Below, in pieces: positions 42,001 through 48,000 of a stretch of DNA of 64,000 nt. The stretch is from Tumebacillus amylolyticus (lineage in GTDB: Bacteria > Bacillota > Bacilli > Tumebacillales > Tumebacillaceae). Made by a program: the position numbers. Within the stretch, counting starts at the first letter, position 1, and each line of letters begins with the position of its first letter. The DNA is taken from NCBI RefSeq assembly GCF_016722965.1, contig NZ_JAEQNB010000005.1, positions 62,001-126,000 on the forward strand. The letters are read 5' to 3'.

Positions 42001-45000
42001 TCCAGAACAAGCGGGTTCCGCATCTGGGATGTTCTACACGGTGTACAACATTGGCCGGGCTGTGAGTCAGACGCTTGCGCTGATGATCGTTGAGCTTCGT
42101 ATAGCACCTAACATCGCATCTCATATGTTTCTCGGGATGGGGATTGAACAAAGCAAGTTGGTTAAAAGCGCACTCGTACATTTGACTGACACGGGATTCC
42201 GAGTTTTCAGCGTGTTTTTCGCCATATCACTATTGCTAGGCTGCTTCCTGCTGAGGAAACCTGCAAACTCATAATTTGCAGCTCTCGATTTGGAAGGGAC
42301 CGATGGTGGGTACAACAAAGAGACGAGCATCCACAGTAGCTGGATGCTCGTCTTTGCTTTTAGATTTCCAGATACACTGGAACTCAAAATCGGACATGAA
42401 AAAACACTCCTCCTCACGGTTCTTGGAACCCCATGAAGTGGAGCGTTCTCAAAAAAACCTCACACGTACAATAGCCTTGCCTTACTTACAAAATCTTCGC
42501 CTCAATCCGTAGCTTGTCCGCGACCATGTTCCCCGCCTCCTATTGTTGCTTCTCAAATGACAGTATCGTCAACTTGGTTCCTCGTTTTGTTGGAAACAGG
42601 AGTGTTGTTTCCGTATGACGATCTTTGAGCTTCAAGTATTGCCGAAGCTCCCTTTGCATGACCATTGAAAAGTAGATATACCGCTCATTCTTCCCCTTGG
42701 TTTTAGTCAAGAGAACCATCCTGTGTTTGAAGTCGATTTGCTCAACTTCGATTTCCAGACACTCACCGATTCGCATTCCAGTGTGCTGTAAGAGCATGAC
42801 AATGATCTTGTTCCGATATCCGTGAAATGTCGTGTAGTCAAACTGGTCGAGGAGCCTATTGAACTCCTCTTGACTGACACCGCTTTTCTGTCTGCGAATC
42901 GAATGTAATTTTTCTATTTTATCGAAGGGGTTCTTGATCAGTTCACCTTCTTGGTGGAGCCATTTGAAAAAGACCTTGATGTTGCGAAGGTAATTATTGA
43001 TCGTCACGCTCGATACCTGTTTCTTGTAGTCAGTTCTGTTTTCAGGGAAGTTGATCTGTTTAGACGCTTCTCGATTGACAACCGTATACTTCCCTCTTTC
43101 TTGCACATACGCCATATACTGACGGATATGCCCTGTACGGACTTCACGGAGGAGTTCTACGCTGTGTTCGTTTTTCAGCTAGGCAAAGAACAACTTGAGG
43201 GATTGTTCATAGGCAGAAAGGGTTTTAGCAGACAGATTTTTGTTCTGGCAGTACAACAGGAAGTCTTCAAGGTAGAAATCAAACTCACTCATTTTCACTG
43301 TACATTCCCCTATCTCCCGCCCAACAAAAAACCCAACGAATCAAAAGATTCATCGGGTGAGATGGAAAAAGTTTATCGGTTCCAAAATGGGTTTGTCGGC
43401 TTTTCACAATTAAAAGTAGATGAGTGCGATATGCCTAGAACCCTTGACGAATCAACAACTACGAAATCTTCGCCTCAATCCGCAGCTTATCCGCGACCAT
43501 CGCAACGAATGACGGCGTGCTATTTGTGTCCAGTCAGGTGGATGCGGATCAGCTTTTGTAGGTTACAAAAATGATCTTCGAAAACAGCTTCGTTTGTTTT
43601 TTTGTATTTGCAATTGATGTTGCTACAAGAATAGCAGTAATTAAAATCAGAAGGAACTTAATGGAGGAAAGGGTATTTCCAAAAAAGAAAAATATTTACA
43701 AAATCATTATGATATCCCATAATGAGTATCAGAAGTAAAAAATTCCATAAGAGGTGTAAATTTACGATGCCCAAAAAATTGTTTCCTCTGGTCGTTACCA
43801 CAATCTTGACGACAACGCTCGCTTCGTACCCAGCCGTCGCATCAACCGACACGTACGAGCCGAATGACACGAAGGCACAAGCTTACTATGTGTCAGCCGA
43901 CACCACCTATACTTCCTACCTGTCCACTGGCACGGATGTAGACTATTACCAGTACTATCGCTCTTTCACAGGCACGCAGACCTTCACCTTTACGCCGCCC
44001 AATGATGGCAACGTCTACAACGTCCAGGTCATTGACCCGAACAACACTGTTATGACTGCAGGAAGCACGTCCTCAACAGGGGGACCTCTCACCCTGGCGT
44101 TCAACGTCTCGACAATCCAGACTCCGTACTACATCAAGATTTATAGCAACGGCAATGTCTCCGCCAATCCATACCAACTCGTGATGGGCCACTATGACAC
44201 TGGGGAAGTAAACAACACCCAAGCTCAAGCGTACTCCATCGCAGACGGGCATTTTTACAATGCAGTTTTAGCTACCACATCCGATGTTGACTACTATGCA
44301 TACAACGCAACCAAGAACGGGGTGGCGACCATCACCCTTACGCAGCCGGGCGACGCAGCAGCTAACTTTTCGATATATGATGATCTCGGTAAATCATTTG
44401 CTGGAGGCACGATCGGTGGCGGTGGCAGTGATGCAACTTCAACACCGTTCCAATTCAGCGTGACTGCTGGCCGCAAATATTACGTCAAGTACTTCCCGAC
44501 GAGTACAGTTTCAAGTTCGTACTATAACATTTCCTTTGAGAATCTTGATGCCAACGAGCCGAACGACTCGTTCGCACAAGCTACATCGGTGAACCTCGGA
44601 TTGAACAGCTACTTCTTGTATAACTCTCAGGATGTGGACTACTACAAATTCCATGCCAACACAACCGGTACGGTATCTCTCGACATTCTCCCACAGGCTC
44701 CGGGCAGCATTGGTTGGAGTCTCTACCAAGGAACCGGTACCCAACTGGCTGGAGGCTCGGTCGGCTTCCAAGCGTCTTCCTCCCCCTATAGTTTCTCGGT
44801 GACCTCCGGTTCCGATTACTATATCAAAGTGGTCAAACAAACCGGTGACAACTCCCAAATGTGTTACACAATGGAACTTAAGTAAAGTTAACACACCGCG
44901 AAGCATTTGATTTTAAAAAACGATCCCCCTTGCTGTTTAACGCAAGGGGGATCGTTTTTAAAATCAAAAATATTAGTTCAGATACGCTGCAAAACTTCCC

Positions 45001-48000
45001 TTTACTGAGCAGGAGCCTGTGTTTTTCACGTTGAGGTCTGGTCAACCTCGATCTCCAAGCACTCGCCAATGCGCATCCCTGTGTCCTGTAGGAGCAAAAC
45101 AACTATCTTTATTCTGTACCCGTGGCATGTCGTGTAGTCGAATTGTTCCAAAAGCCTATTGAACTCTTCTGGTGACACTCCGCTTTTCTGTCTTCGAACT
45201 GAATGTAGTTGTTCACCTTGTCAAACGGAATCTTGATGACTTCTCGCGCTTCATGTAGCCAGTTCTTAGGTAGTTGTTGATAGTCACGCTGAAAACTTAT
45301 TTTTTGTAGTCTGTTCGATCCTCAGGGTGGTTGATCTGCATACTGGCATCGCGATTGACAACCGTGTACTTGCCACGCTCCTGTACGTAGGCGATGTACT
45401 GCCTGATATGTCCTGTCCGCACTTCTCTGAGACGTTCTACTCCGTGTTCGGTGGTCAGGTAGGCGAAAAACAATCCCAGCGATTGCTCGTAAGAGGAGAG
45501 CGTTTTTGGGACAAATTTTTGTTTTGGCAGTACAGCAGAAAGTCTTCTATGTAGAAATCGAATTCGCTCATTTTCATCGGACATCCTCCATCACGCCCCA
45601 ACAAACAAACCCAATGAATTTTATATTCATTGGGTGAGATGGAATAAGTTTATAGGCTCAAAATCGTATTTATTGGCTTGTCACAATTACGAATTATGAT
45701 TGCCGTACCGCCAATTTCCCTTATCTGACAAGGCTTCGAGAAGATTACGAAATCTTCGCCTCAATCCGCAGCTTATCCGCAACCATCGCGATGAACTCCG
45801 AGTTCGTCGGCTTGCTCTTCCCTACGTTGACGGTGTTCCCAAACAGCGCACGGATCGAGTCCACGTTCCCGCGGCCCCAAGCGACTTCGATCGCGTGGCG
45901 GATGGCGCGTTCGACGCGGGACGGGGTGGTGTTGTATTTCTCGGCGATCTTCGGGTAGAGGATCTTCGTGATCGAGCCGAGGATCTCGACATCCTTGTAC
46001 ACCATGCCAATCGCTTCACGCAGGTAGTGGTAGCCCTTGATGTGCGCCGGAACGCCGATCTCGTGGATGATGTTGGTGATCGAAGCGTCGACGTTCTTGC
46101 CGCGCGTCATCATCACTTGCTGCTTCGGTGCTCCCGTGCCCGGTACGCGCACCACTTGGCGGATGCGGTTGGCGAGGACGTCCATGTCAAACGGTTTGAG
46201 GATGTAGTACGCCGCCCCAAACTCCACGGCGCGCTTGGTGATGTTCTCTTGGCCAAACGCCGTTAACATGATGACTTTCGGGTCGAAGGAAAGGCTCATC
46301 CCTTGGATTTTCTCCAGGACCCCGATGCCGTCCAACACCGGCATGATGATGTCGAGGATGATGACATCCGGTTGCTGTTGTTCCAGCATTTCCAGAACTT
46401 CGTTGCCGTTGTACGCAACGCCGACAACTTCCATGTCACGTTGCTCCGTTACGAACTCTTTCAACAGCTCGGCGAATTCACGGTTATCATCCGCAATCAT
46501 CACTTTGATTTGTTTCACTGTATGGGAACCCCCTTAGGTAAGTGCGTTCAATGGTTTCTGACAGGAAGATATTTCGACAAAGCCATTTTTATTCCTCCAT
46601 TTTGGAACGATAAAGATTTTGACCATTTTCAACAAATTTCCCCTTCAAAACAACCTCACAACCTCTTTTGACCCTTTTACAGAGTCGAATCCGACCCAAA
46701 CCCCCGCCTTTTTGTCGAAAAGTCTTTCAAAAAAAAGACGCCACCCGAGAGGATGCCGTCTTTTTTCCATCTTATAGGGCTACTTTTGCCACCGTGTCGC
46801 GACGCTCTGCACGCGCTTTGCGGAAGTTGAGCAGTTCGAAAATGACCGGTACGACGATGAGCGTCAGCAGGGTCGACGTGACCAGACCGCCGATGACGAC
46901 CGCCCCCAAACCGCGGGAGATGATCGAACCGCTGCCAATCCCTGCTGCCAGCGGAACCAGCGCAAAGATCGTCGCAATCGCCGTCATGAGAATCGGGCGC
47001 AGACGAGTGCCGCCGGACTCCAGCAAGGCTTCGCGGATCGAGAGACCGTTTTTGATCTGGTGCTGTACACGGTCGATGAGAACGATTGCGTTGGTGACGA
47101 CGATCCCGATCAGCATCAAGAAGCCGATCAGCGAGGAGATCGAAATCGGTTCGCCGATCACGATCGTGCCAAGCAGACCGCCGACCAATGCGAACGGCAG
47201 CGAGAACAAGATCGCAAACGGTGCGCGGCCTTCTCCAAACGAGATGACCATGACGATGTAGACCATCCCGAGTGCGACAGACATCGCGAGCATCATGTCG
47301 GACATCATGTTTTGAATGTCTTCCGTAGAACCGCCCATCGAGTATTTCACTCCGGACGGAAGCGTCATCGCCGCAAGCGCGTCGGTTATCGCTGTGTTGA
47401 CAGCATTGGCGTCTGCAGACGTGATCGTGCCGGTGACGGAGGAGTACTCGTCGCCGTTTTTGTTCTGGATCTTGCCCGGCAGCTGGACTTGAGTTACATC
47501 TGCGATGTCCTTGACTTGAATTTGTTTGCCGGTCGGCAGGTCGAGCGTCATCTTGCCGATCTCACCCAGCGTCGTCAGCGAATTGCCTTTGAGCGTCAGG
47601 AACAGGTCGGACGCAGACTTGCCGTCACCGACTTTGCCGATTTGGCTCTCGGTGAGGTACGGGCGCAGCATCGAGGACGCTTGGATGACGGTCAAGCCGT
47701 TTTTGAGGGCGTCTTCGGTGCGGACTTGCAGTTGCACGCCTTTGGAACCTTCTTGCAGGTTGTTGTTGACGTTGGAGGTGCCTTCGATTTTCTTGACTGC
47801 GGCGGTGATGTCTTCGGTCGCTTGTTTGCGGTCTTCTGCGGTTCCGCCGGTGACGGTGATGTCGAGACCCGCGCTTGCGCCGCCGCCGTTGCCGTCGTAC
47901 ATGTCGAACTTGGAGCCTTCTTCGACTTTGATCTTCGCCTTCATGTCTGCCATGAGTTGCTTCGTGTCGGTGTCAGACTTAAGTTTGAGGAACCAGTTTG

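What a model noticed while it worked through the whole genome (the two positions that open the first line are those of the whole stretch)
42486..46518. Integrase family that targets the 3' end of spo0A
The last 40-50 bp of spo0A are repeated twice downstream, each copy bounding the remains of a tyrosine integrase, with a secreted-protein gene as cargo. A dedicated integrase family likely uses the 3' end of the sporulation master regulator as its attachment site across Bacilli, restoring the gene on entry. spo0A as an att site would give mobile elements a handle on the sporulation switch and offers a conserved landing pad for spore formers.
Evidence so far: Duplications at C27:105460 (50 bp, 94%) and 104486 (42 bp, 90%) and two integrase remnants. 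All 5 homologues of g03394 found in 300 Bacilli genomes, from five families, lie directly behind spo0A; in G001 the intact integrase and a second spo0A end bound a 36-kb element with tail tape-measure, Ku and ligase genes. Extra spo0A ends close behind the gene also in G009 and G015, with other cargo. Two paper searches found nothing.
(Added by a program. Inside this text positions count along the whole contig: contig position 62,001 is position 1 of the stretch shown here. "Call 12" and the like, gene names such as g00115 and contig names such as C1 are that model's own, and its searches are not shown. The text may have been shortened before it was handed on; [...] marks where a part breaks off. 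The agent that wrote the report below was given it as the finding of a first reader that could run no searches.)

Follow-up and report, generated by a model that had tools for sequence, protein, structure and literature searches.

The report
Integrases docking in spo0A's tail
Phages and gene islands across spore-forming bacteria carry an integrase that sits right behind the sporulation master gene spo0A and likely inserts them into its last codons while supplying a matching replacement end; this window holds two broken leftovers of such insertions.

Summary
Confirmed and wider than first read. The window holds three copies of the spo0A 3' end and two dead tyrosine-integrase remnants. In GTDB, 76 of the 79 best relatives lie 74-223 nt behind spo0A; the other 3 are at contig edges. 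They span Bacilli and Clostridia. In an even sample, 4 of 400 Bacillota carry one, all behind spo0A. 34 of 50 genomes have a second spo0A end 5-38 kb downstream, bounding prophages or small islands. A complete 139.6-kb phage carries the integrase with only the last 19 codons (attP-like). In Priestia the distal copy plus flank equals the empty site of 4 sister genomes, and the restored gene ends in a recoded tail (K to R). Paired copies differ by 172 synonymous and 16 nonsynonymous codons. A second integrase clade also abuts spo0A ends. The principle (integration into a gene end that is restored, as at icd and dusA) is known; ten paper searches found no report of spo0A as target, but the TIGER paper was not readable. 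The crossover point is unresolved and no effect on sporulation is shown. This scan noted the site before on other DNA (e1-3776888, e1-3459915, e1-1181327).

The parts
45745..46518 (-). spo0A, intact, 257 aa; its last codons are the attL of the newest element
   Evidence: Pfam PF00072 + PF08769; ORF list
45578..45744 (-). Element-derived leader 1: palindrome CCTT-N7-AAGG at 45719-45733, RCCDAYAAA repeats at 45677 and 45657, terminator-like hairpin at 45609-45635
45020..45577 (-). Integrase remnant 1 (frameshifted, internally deleted, truncated)
44912..44963 (.). 22-bp inverted repeat behind the cargo gene, likely its terminator
   Evidence: I1
43767..44885 (+). Cargo of element 1: 372-aa protein with PPC-like repeats, likely secreted
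   Evidence: no Pfam hit at 1e-3; sigma70-like promoter at 43695-43723
43460..43509 (-). Second copy of the spo0A end (attR of element 1, also the left edge of element 2); one RCCDAYAAA motif upstream at 43563
43299..43459 (-). Leader 2 with repeats at 43400 and 43380 and a terminator-like hairpin at 43331-43358; 81-89% like leaders in G004 and G001
42540..43298 (-). Integrase remnant 2 (in-frame stop; C-terminal catalytic part missing)
42486..42527 (-). Third copy of the spo0A end, fused to the truncated integrase by a deletion
39859..42274 (.). LysR regulator plus MFS transporter; possibly cargo of an older element (inferred from position only)
39737..39780 (-). Third, decayed leader remnant; suggests that the array extends to at least here
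   Evidence: 91% over 44 nt, E 1e-9; this leader occurs nowhere else in the genome

Best explanation
This is the decayed end of a tandem array of mobile elements whose tyrosine integrase likely recombines a copy of the spo0A 3' end carried in the element (attP) with the chromosomal spo0A end (attB), so that the gene stays whole and the displaced end is left as a direct repeat on the far side. Shown: position, duplications, an attP-like site in a complete phage, an empty site matching the distal copy, and conserved coding in both copies. Inferred: each new element enters the restored gene and pushes older ones downstream; the element also supplies a terminator-like hairpin between spo0A and the integrase gene; the RCCDAYAAA repeats and CCTT-N7-AAGG palindromes on both element ends are binding sites. 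The crossover most likely falls in the last ~80 nt shared by nearly all pairs, but it is not fixed by my data. Both local integrases are dead, so this array is now immobile unless helped in trans.
For: 76 of 79 best GTDB relatives (of 300 found) lie 74-223 nt behind spo0A, the other 3 have under 210 nt of upstream contig, and 72 of 79 have an unbroken alignment of 290 aa or more. 4 of 400 evenly drawn Bacillota have the family at E<=1e-60, all 4 behind spo0A. Of 50 genomes I picked from the 79, 34 have a second end 4.7-38 kb downstream on the same contig, 7 on another contig, 9 none or unclear. Phage head and tail genes lie between the ends in 4 of 4 elements of 33-38 kb tested. G043 is a 139,584-bp record with terminal repeats, 100% complete, with terminase, portal, capsid and tape-measure genes, the integrase and only the last 19 codons of spo0A, flanked by palindromes at -69 and +43. 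Priestia G112: the distal copy plus flank is 98.6% and 97.8% identical over 1.57 kb to the sequence from the spo0A end onward in two sister genomes and about 95% in two more; the restored gene ends HRAS, the distal copy and all 4 sisters HKAS. 16 pairs: 172 synonymous against 16 nonsynonymous codon differences on 505 and 1823 sites. The repeat motif follows the stop in 36 of 55 pairs against 0.4 in shuffles and precedes the distal copy in 35 of 55. All catalytic residues are invariant in 22 aligned proteins. Weak hint: in one Priestia run the element has depth 33 against 137-180 for the flanks, while another run is level.
Against: No recombination was shown at the bench or in raw reads; the depth drop could be two mixed strains. 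No 7-nt window is free of mismatches across pairs, and the 5' edge of the duplication ranges from 16 to 189 nt upstream of the EFIAM methionine, differing (93, 119, 162) even between close integrases, which a single fixed core does not explain simply. A codon-usage test for which copy is host-derived gave no signal (33:40, 33:28, 18:21, 26:19). The palindrome halves matched my strict patterns in only 20 and 15 of 55 pairs (2.8 and 4.2 in shuffles). Only the best 79 of 300 hits were inspected, so more distant members may use other sites. No cultured phage in INPHARED carries the integrase at E<=1e-40.
Confidence: 0.88

Rival explanations
1. Same target, different chemistry: the integrase binds only the element's ends and strand exchange floats anywhere within 60-230 bp of spo0A homology (branch migration or RecA help), so elements pick up and swap host-specific spo0A tails. 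This is a variant of the best explanation, differing in where the crossover falls.
For: Duplication length varies nearly continuously, 18 of 55 pairs are perfectly identical (up to 231 bp), and there is no invariant core. Elements with similar right arms carry host-specific residues in both copies. One Priestia contig joins the host-type end plus 12 nt to the element leader, whereas G112 switches inside the gene.
Against: Junctions cluster (15 of 55 at 48-57 nt) and by eye often lie 13-15 nt from the palindrome's left half, which fits a few fixed sub-sites. Later gene conversion between the repeats would give the same pattern.
Confidence: 0.3
2. The integrase is a host housekeeping recombinase that happens to be syntenic with spo0A, and the extra ends come from local tandem duplication.
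For: The quick tree roughly follows host groups; best profile and fold matches are Xer-type recombinases.
Against: Only 4 of 400 genomes have it; it is missing behind spo0A in sister genomes; it occurs in a complete phage; the DNA between the repeats is unrelated from genome to genome; no Xer model reaches its cut-off.
Confidence: 0.02
3. The spo0A fragments are cargo: expressed receiver-less effector genes by which phages steer sporulation, as proposed for gut phages by Schwartz et al. 2023.
Against: The copies here are 14-17 codons with no start. The att-type viral fragments show no ribosome-binding site by eye and 13 of 20 have an in-frame stop near their start. True stand-alone effector genes are a separate, divergent class: 0 of 42 have the integrase within 3 kb and 0 of 30 records searched whole carry it.
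Confidence: 0.05

Closest known systems
dusA-associated integrases (Farrugia et al. 2015, PMC4482086; passages read)
   Same: One tyrosine-integrase family tied to one protein-coding gene across many genomes, shared by prophages and islands with diverse cargo, replacing the part of the gene that it displaces.
   Different: dusA elements replace the 5' end and have a 21-bp consensus repeat; here the 3' end is replaced, repeats run 56-231 bp, and excision has not been shown by PCR.
e14 and phage 21 at the 3' end of icd in E. coli (recalled, not read; also named in the notes)
   Same: Long replacement 3' end, mostly synonymous changes, gene kept whole, two integrases using one gene.
   Different: Lambda-type integrases with fixed crossovers (recalled); here the integrase has no N-terminal arm-binding domain and the duplication length varies widely over a whole phylum.
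Elements that interrupt sporulation genes: skin in sigK, yin in yabG (search listings only), SPbeta in spsM (recalled)
   Same: Mobile DNA inserted in a sporulation gene of spore formers.
   Different: Those split the gene, and skin must excise during development; here spo0A is whole in the integrated state, so no excision is needed.
Phage-carried truncated spo0A (Schwartz et al. 2023, PMC10294663; parts 1-2 of 3 of the text and supplement passages)
   Same: Receiver-less spo0A sequence in gut phage contigs.
   Different: Their reading is an expressed regulator. In my 80 viral hits 42 are of that divergent type and unlinked to this integrase, 23 are near-host att-type pieces and 15 are full host genes.
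Xer-like recombinases without an arm-binding domain (archaeal XerA 5hxy, XerD 1a0p, Brujita integrase 5vfz)
   Same: Two-domain architecture (core-binding plus catalytic), about 325 aa.
   Different: About 23% identity at best; the model has an extra stretch of about 30 residues in the core-binding domain; mobile and patchy, not housekeeping.

Membership tests
Tyrosine recombinase | Catalytic R-K-H-R-H/W-Y residues | tested here: met
   R189, K214, H279, R282, H305, Y315 invariant in 22 full-length relatives; the two window remnants lack the C-terminal ones
Tyrosine recombinase | Core-binding plus catalytic fold | tested here: met
   Model pLDDT 84.7; Foldseek E 5e-15 to XerA, 3e-12 to Tn1549 Int, 6e-11 to lambda Int
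Gene-restoring Campbell-type integrative element (icd, dusA, tRNA type) | Integrase next to the target gene and a direct repeat of the displaced gene part at the far end | tested here: met
   76 of 79 loci; 34 of 50 genomes with a same-contig second end
Gene-restoring Campbell-type integrative element (icd, dusA, tRNA type) | Empty site in relatives equals the joined flanks | tested here: met
   Priestia G112 against 4 sister genomes
Gene-restoring Campbell-type integrative element (icd, dusA, tRNA type) | Free form with attP holding the gene fragment | tested here: met
   G043, complete with terminal repeats, one 19-codon match only; one clear record
Gene-restoring Campbell-type integrative element (icd, dusA, tRNA type) | One fixed 6-8 bp overlap shared by all att sites | tested here: inconclusive
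   No mismatch-free 7-mer across pairs, variable junctions; codon test without signal
Gene-restoring Campbell-type integrative element (icd, dusA, tRNA type) | Integrase-dependent excision and integration | not testable with these tools
   Only a depth hint from contigs
Lambda-type integrase | N-terminal arm-binding domain | tested here: not met
   The protein starts with the SAM-like domain (Pfam; first helix at residue 18 of the model)
XerC/XerD/XerS/XerA housekeeping recombinases | Score above the curated cut-off | tested here: not met
   Best 168.9 bits against cut-off 220; XerC 167 against 335
Developmentally excised elements (skin type) | Target gene is split while the element is integrated | tested here: not met
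   spo0A is a whole 257-aa frame here and aligns over most of its length in nearly all loci with enough upstream contig

The most novel reading that the evidence does not exclude
spo0A's tail is a phylum-wide, ancient docking site served by at least two integrase clades, in which the crossover floats over up to 230 bp, so that phages and islands exchange alleles of Spo0A's DNA-binding domain between strains; the terminator they install behind spo0A lets read-through at sporulation onset switch on the integrase, tying element mobility to the sporulation decision.
Probability: 0.2. Interest if true: 0.82.

Novelty: new member of a known kind. Interest (0 to 1): 0.6.

Why it matters
It gives a conserved landing site, and 72 apparently intact integrases, for spore formers from Bacillus and Priestia to Clostridium and gut Oscillospiraceae, where the target gene stays whole. 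It explains part of the 'extra spo0A fragments' in genomes and phage contigs, which have been counted as sporulation cargo (PF08769 enrichment in gut mobile elements, PMC6907783, passage read; whether those cases are att pieces was not tested). It shows that the last 20-75 codons and the 3' region of the sporulation master regulator are repeatedly rewritten by mobile DNA: all 9 genomes of this family show element-type sequence behind a spo0A end. Whether this changes sporulation is open and now testable in B. subtilis.

Tried and rejected
(1) The idea that published phage-borne truncated spo0A genes are simply att pieces: rejected for the divergent stand-alone class (0 of 42 with the integrase within 3 kb; 0 of 30 whole records, 3 with only distant integrases); it holds for 23 of 80 hits, which come from few, redundant phage lineages. 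(2) Locating the crossover by a mismatch-free window and by codon usage: no answer. (3) A distal copy in B. spizizenii TU-B-10: none found; the island ends inside the native intergenic region. (4) Cultured phages: no match in INPHARED at E<=1e-40. (5) Direct read evidence of a circle or an empty junction: none in the four contig sets laid; the depth drop in one run was not followed further and stays open. (6) Spo0A_C in 401 Bacilli genomes: 25 of 334 positive genomes have two or more matches, unverified and blind to short ends, so not used as a frequency. (7) The tree is the quick one without bootstrap; used only for a rough picture. (8) RNA folding of the leaders: z -2.0, -2.7 and -0.4; only the terminal hairpin is robust. 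(9) Pair statistics: of 43 locus pairs given, 3 gave no pair; rows with under 16 nt of upstream identity, including both window copies and mis-anchored second hits, were dropped, and one row per pair was kept; the scripts report 55 rows kept, so the input list held more pairs than the 43 I first counted and n is taken from the script output. (10) Look-ups of earlier findings by place and by sequence gave nothing.
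Full report
Observation. spo0A lies at 45745-46518 on the minus strand and is whole. Its last 50 nt recur at 43460-43509 (94%) and its last 42 nt at 42486-42527 (90.5%); the next best match in the 4.8-Mb genome has E 0.016. Behind the gene and behind the second copy lies the same cassette: about 165 nt of leader, then a tyrosine-integrase gene on the same strand. The two integrase regions are 73% identical over 677 nt. Both are dead: the first is frameshifted and stops near residue 199 of a full-length relative, the second has an in-frame stop and ends near residue 272, short of the invariant H279, R282, H305 and Y315. 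Between remnant 1 and copy 2 sits a 372-aa gene on the other strand whose relatives mostly carry PPC domains (29 hits, apart from itself 21-38% identity; atlas rows). A third leader remnant at 39737-39780 suggests the LysR and MFS genes between are cargo of an older element; that is inferred from position only.

The family. An alignment of 22 full-length relatives found 300 relatives in GTDB, of which the best 79 loci were returned. In 76 the integrase starts 74-223 nt (median 167) behind the end of spo0A; the other 3 have under 210 nt of contig upstream; none has a tRNA within 1.5 kb. Hosts named by the records include Bacillus spizizenii TU-B-10, Priestia, Neobacillus, Paenibacillus, Brevibacillus, Clostridium, Hathewaya, Evtepia and Oscillospiraceae. 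In an even sample of 400 Bacillota, 4 have the family at E<=1e-60 (five candidates scored per genome) and all 4 are behind spo0A. No NCBIfam model reaches its cut-off. The predicted fold is core-binding plus catalytic domain without an N-terminal arm-binding domain. A quick tree without bootstrap roughly follows host groups, which suggests an old association; the window's remnant groups with Paenibacillus members.

The elements. I searched 50 of the 79 genomes (mostly isolates with long contigs) for further spo0A ends: 34 have one 4.7-38 kb downstream on the same contig, 7 on another contig, 7 have none, 1 was limited and 1 has a weak inverted hit. Four elements of 33-38 kb tested carry phage tail genes, three of them also terminase and capsid genes among the proteins submitted. 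B. spizizenii has an island of about 11.7 kb with a type I restriction system between spo0A and the flavin oxidoreductase gene that follows it in sister genomes, with the distal copy lost. G012 has a 35.8-kb element with Ku and tape-measure genes. Of 49 viral records searched, 23 hold a spo0A-end match. G043 is a 139,584-bp record with terminal repeats and 100% completeness, with phage head and tail genes, the integrase and only the last 19 codons of spo0A upstream of it: the arrangement expected of attP. It also encodes a second, unrelated recombinase.

Restoration. In Priestia G112 the two copies are identical from 39 nt before to 29 nt after the start of the EFIAM methionine codon. The distal copy plus its flank matches what follows in 4 sister genomes (98.6% and 97.8% over 1.57 kb in two, about 95% in two pieces in the others), while the expressed gene has a recoded tail, HRAS for HKAS. 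This is the pattern of Campbell-type entry with a replaced end, and it places that crossover within 68 nt. Across 16 pairs found within the first loci there are 172 synonymous and 16 nonsynonymous codon differences. Of 55 pairs, 18 are identical and 9 differ in the terminal peptide, some of these through decay of the distal copy.

Signals. A repeat RCCDAYAAA follows the stop in 36 of 55 pairs (0.4 in shuffles) and precedes the distal copy in 35 of 55. Halves of a CCTT-N7-AAGG palindrome lie just before the distal copy in 20 and just after the stop in 15 of 55 (2.8 and 4.2 in shuffles). I derived these patterns by eye from the same loci, so the counts describe rather than test. In the window 6 of 9 minus-strand repeats fall in this array. 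A hairpin with a T run lies between each spo0A end and the integrase start and probably ends the spo0A transcript. Such leaders persist without integrase: they lie directly behind spo0A in G000, G001, G003, G005, G006, G007 and G008; G004 has another leader type with an integrase remnant; G002 has it behind its distal copy.

Open mechanism. The 5' edge of the duplication lies 16-189 nt upstream of the methionine codon, with 15 of 55 at 48-57, and no 7-nt window is free of mismatches. Close integrases can differ (93, 119, 162). A codon-usage test gave no signal. So either there are several sub-sites, or one core near the end with arms reshaped by conversion and deletion, or a floating crossover. 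One Priestia run shows the element at depth 33 against 137-180 for its flanks and the repeat at 130, while another run is level with the repeat at 457; this fits loss of the element from most cells but also a mixture of strains. The longest duplications include the helix-turn-helix region of Spo0A (position recalled, not tested).

A second clade. G002 has a prophage-end integrase only 30% identical to the first family, pointing away from a 36-codon spo0A end. A relative at 54% does the same in a viral record, and of 5 further viral loci the 2 with upstream sequence both have a spo0A end there. That is 4 of 4 evaluable cases, two of them nearly identical.

Phage-borne spo0A. Of the best 80 of 304 viral hits, 15 are full host genes, 23 are near-host fragments of att type (14 with the integrase or a remnant within 3 kb) and 42 are divergent stand-alone frames, many with a clear ribosome-binding site and none near the integrase; none of 30 such records searched whole carries it. 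So att pieces can confound counts of phage spo0A, but the genes discussed by Schwartz et al. (PMC10294663; they excluded scaffold-edge genes) are probably mostly real; their data set was not visible to me.

Literature. Ten full-text searches and passages of PMC10538166, PMC5749712, PMC5027557, PMC12540744, PMC12424338, PMC6907783, PMC3519856 and PMC4209062, plus one supplement file of PMC12884075, gave no report of spo0A as an attachment site. Mageeney et al. 2020 is not held, and its tables and the TIGER/Islander database may list such islands; subscription papers were not searched. The closest described system is the dusA-associated family (passages); e14 and phage 21 at icd are recalled. 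Three earlier notes of this scan reach the same reading on other DNA; they are not independent support.

Verdict. Real, phylum-wide and apparently undescribed as a target; a known principle; the local copy is a relic. Interest 0.6.

Noticed in passing
L015:1201-2428 (G002); L104:8594-9622; L377; L378: A second tyrosine-integrase clade (30% identical to the first) lies next to spo0A 3' ends in the opposite arrangement, at the distal end of prophages (4 of 4 evaluable cases).
   Followed up: partly
L389 (G017:C1:1369500-1386500): A 15.5-kb island with what looks like an inositol-use gene cluster lies between spo0A and a 75-codon duplicate of its end, with no integrase of either clade found; a small degenerate end and a leader scar sit right behind the gene.
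   Followed up: partly
L202 (B. spizizenii TU-B-10): Island of about 11.7 kb behind spo0A with an intact integrase, type I restriction-modification genes and a YgjP-like peptidase; distal repeat not found.
   Followed up: partly
L188 (G008:C1:3062000-3081999); L189 (G006:C1:2104000-2112000): spo0A ends, in G008 with leader and integrase remnant, lie over 100 kb (G008) or over 1 Mb (G006) from spo0A: rearranged arrays or secondary sites.
   Followed up: no
L360-L363 (Priestia sister genomes): The 'empty' sites themselves carry an old leader-like scar with the repeat motif behind the stop codon.
   Followed up: no
window 36990-39188: 732-aa fibronectin type III protein; a 64% relative also lies a few kb behind spo0A among leader remnants in G001, so it may be old cargo.
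   Followed up: no
window 33436-35268: HSP90-family (htpG) gene near the outer edge of the variable region; similarity to G004 resumes only below about 33.2 kb.
   Followed up: no
L207:3424-4653 (Evtepia prophage at spo0A): A reverse transcriptase gene (phrog_1423) among the tail genes, possibly a diversity-generating retroelement.
   Followed up: no
L191-L197 (G043): The 139.6-kb phage also encodes a tRNA nucleotidyltransferase, an anaerobic ribonucleotide reductase, two radical SAM proteins and a second recombinase.
   Followed up: no
L104 and L037: Tandem junctions where one element's distal spo0A end directly serves as the left edge of the next; G104 has three extra ends over 55 kb.
   Followed up: partly
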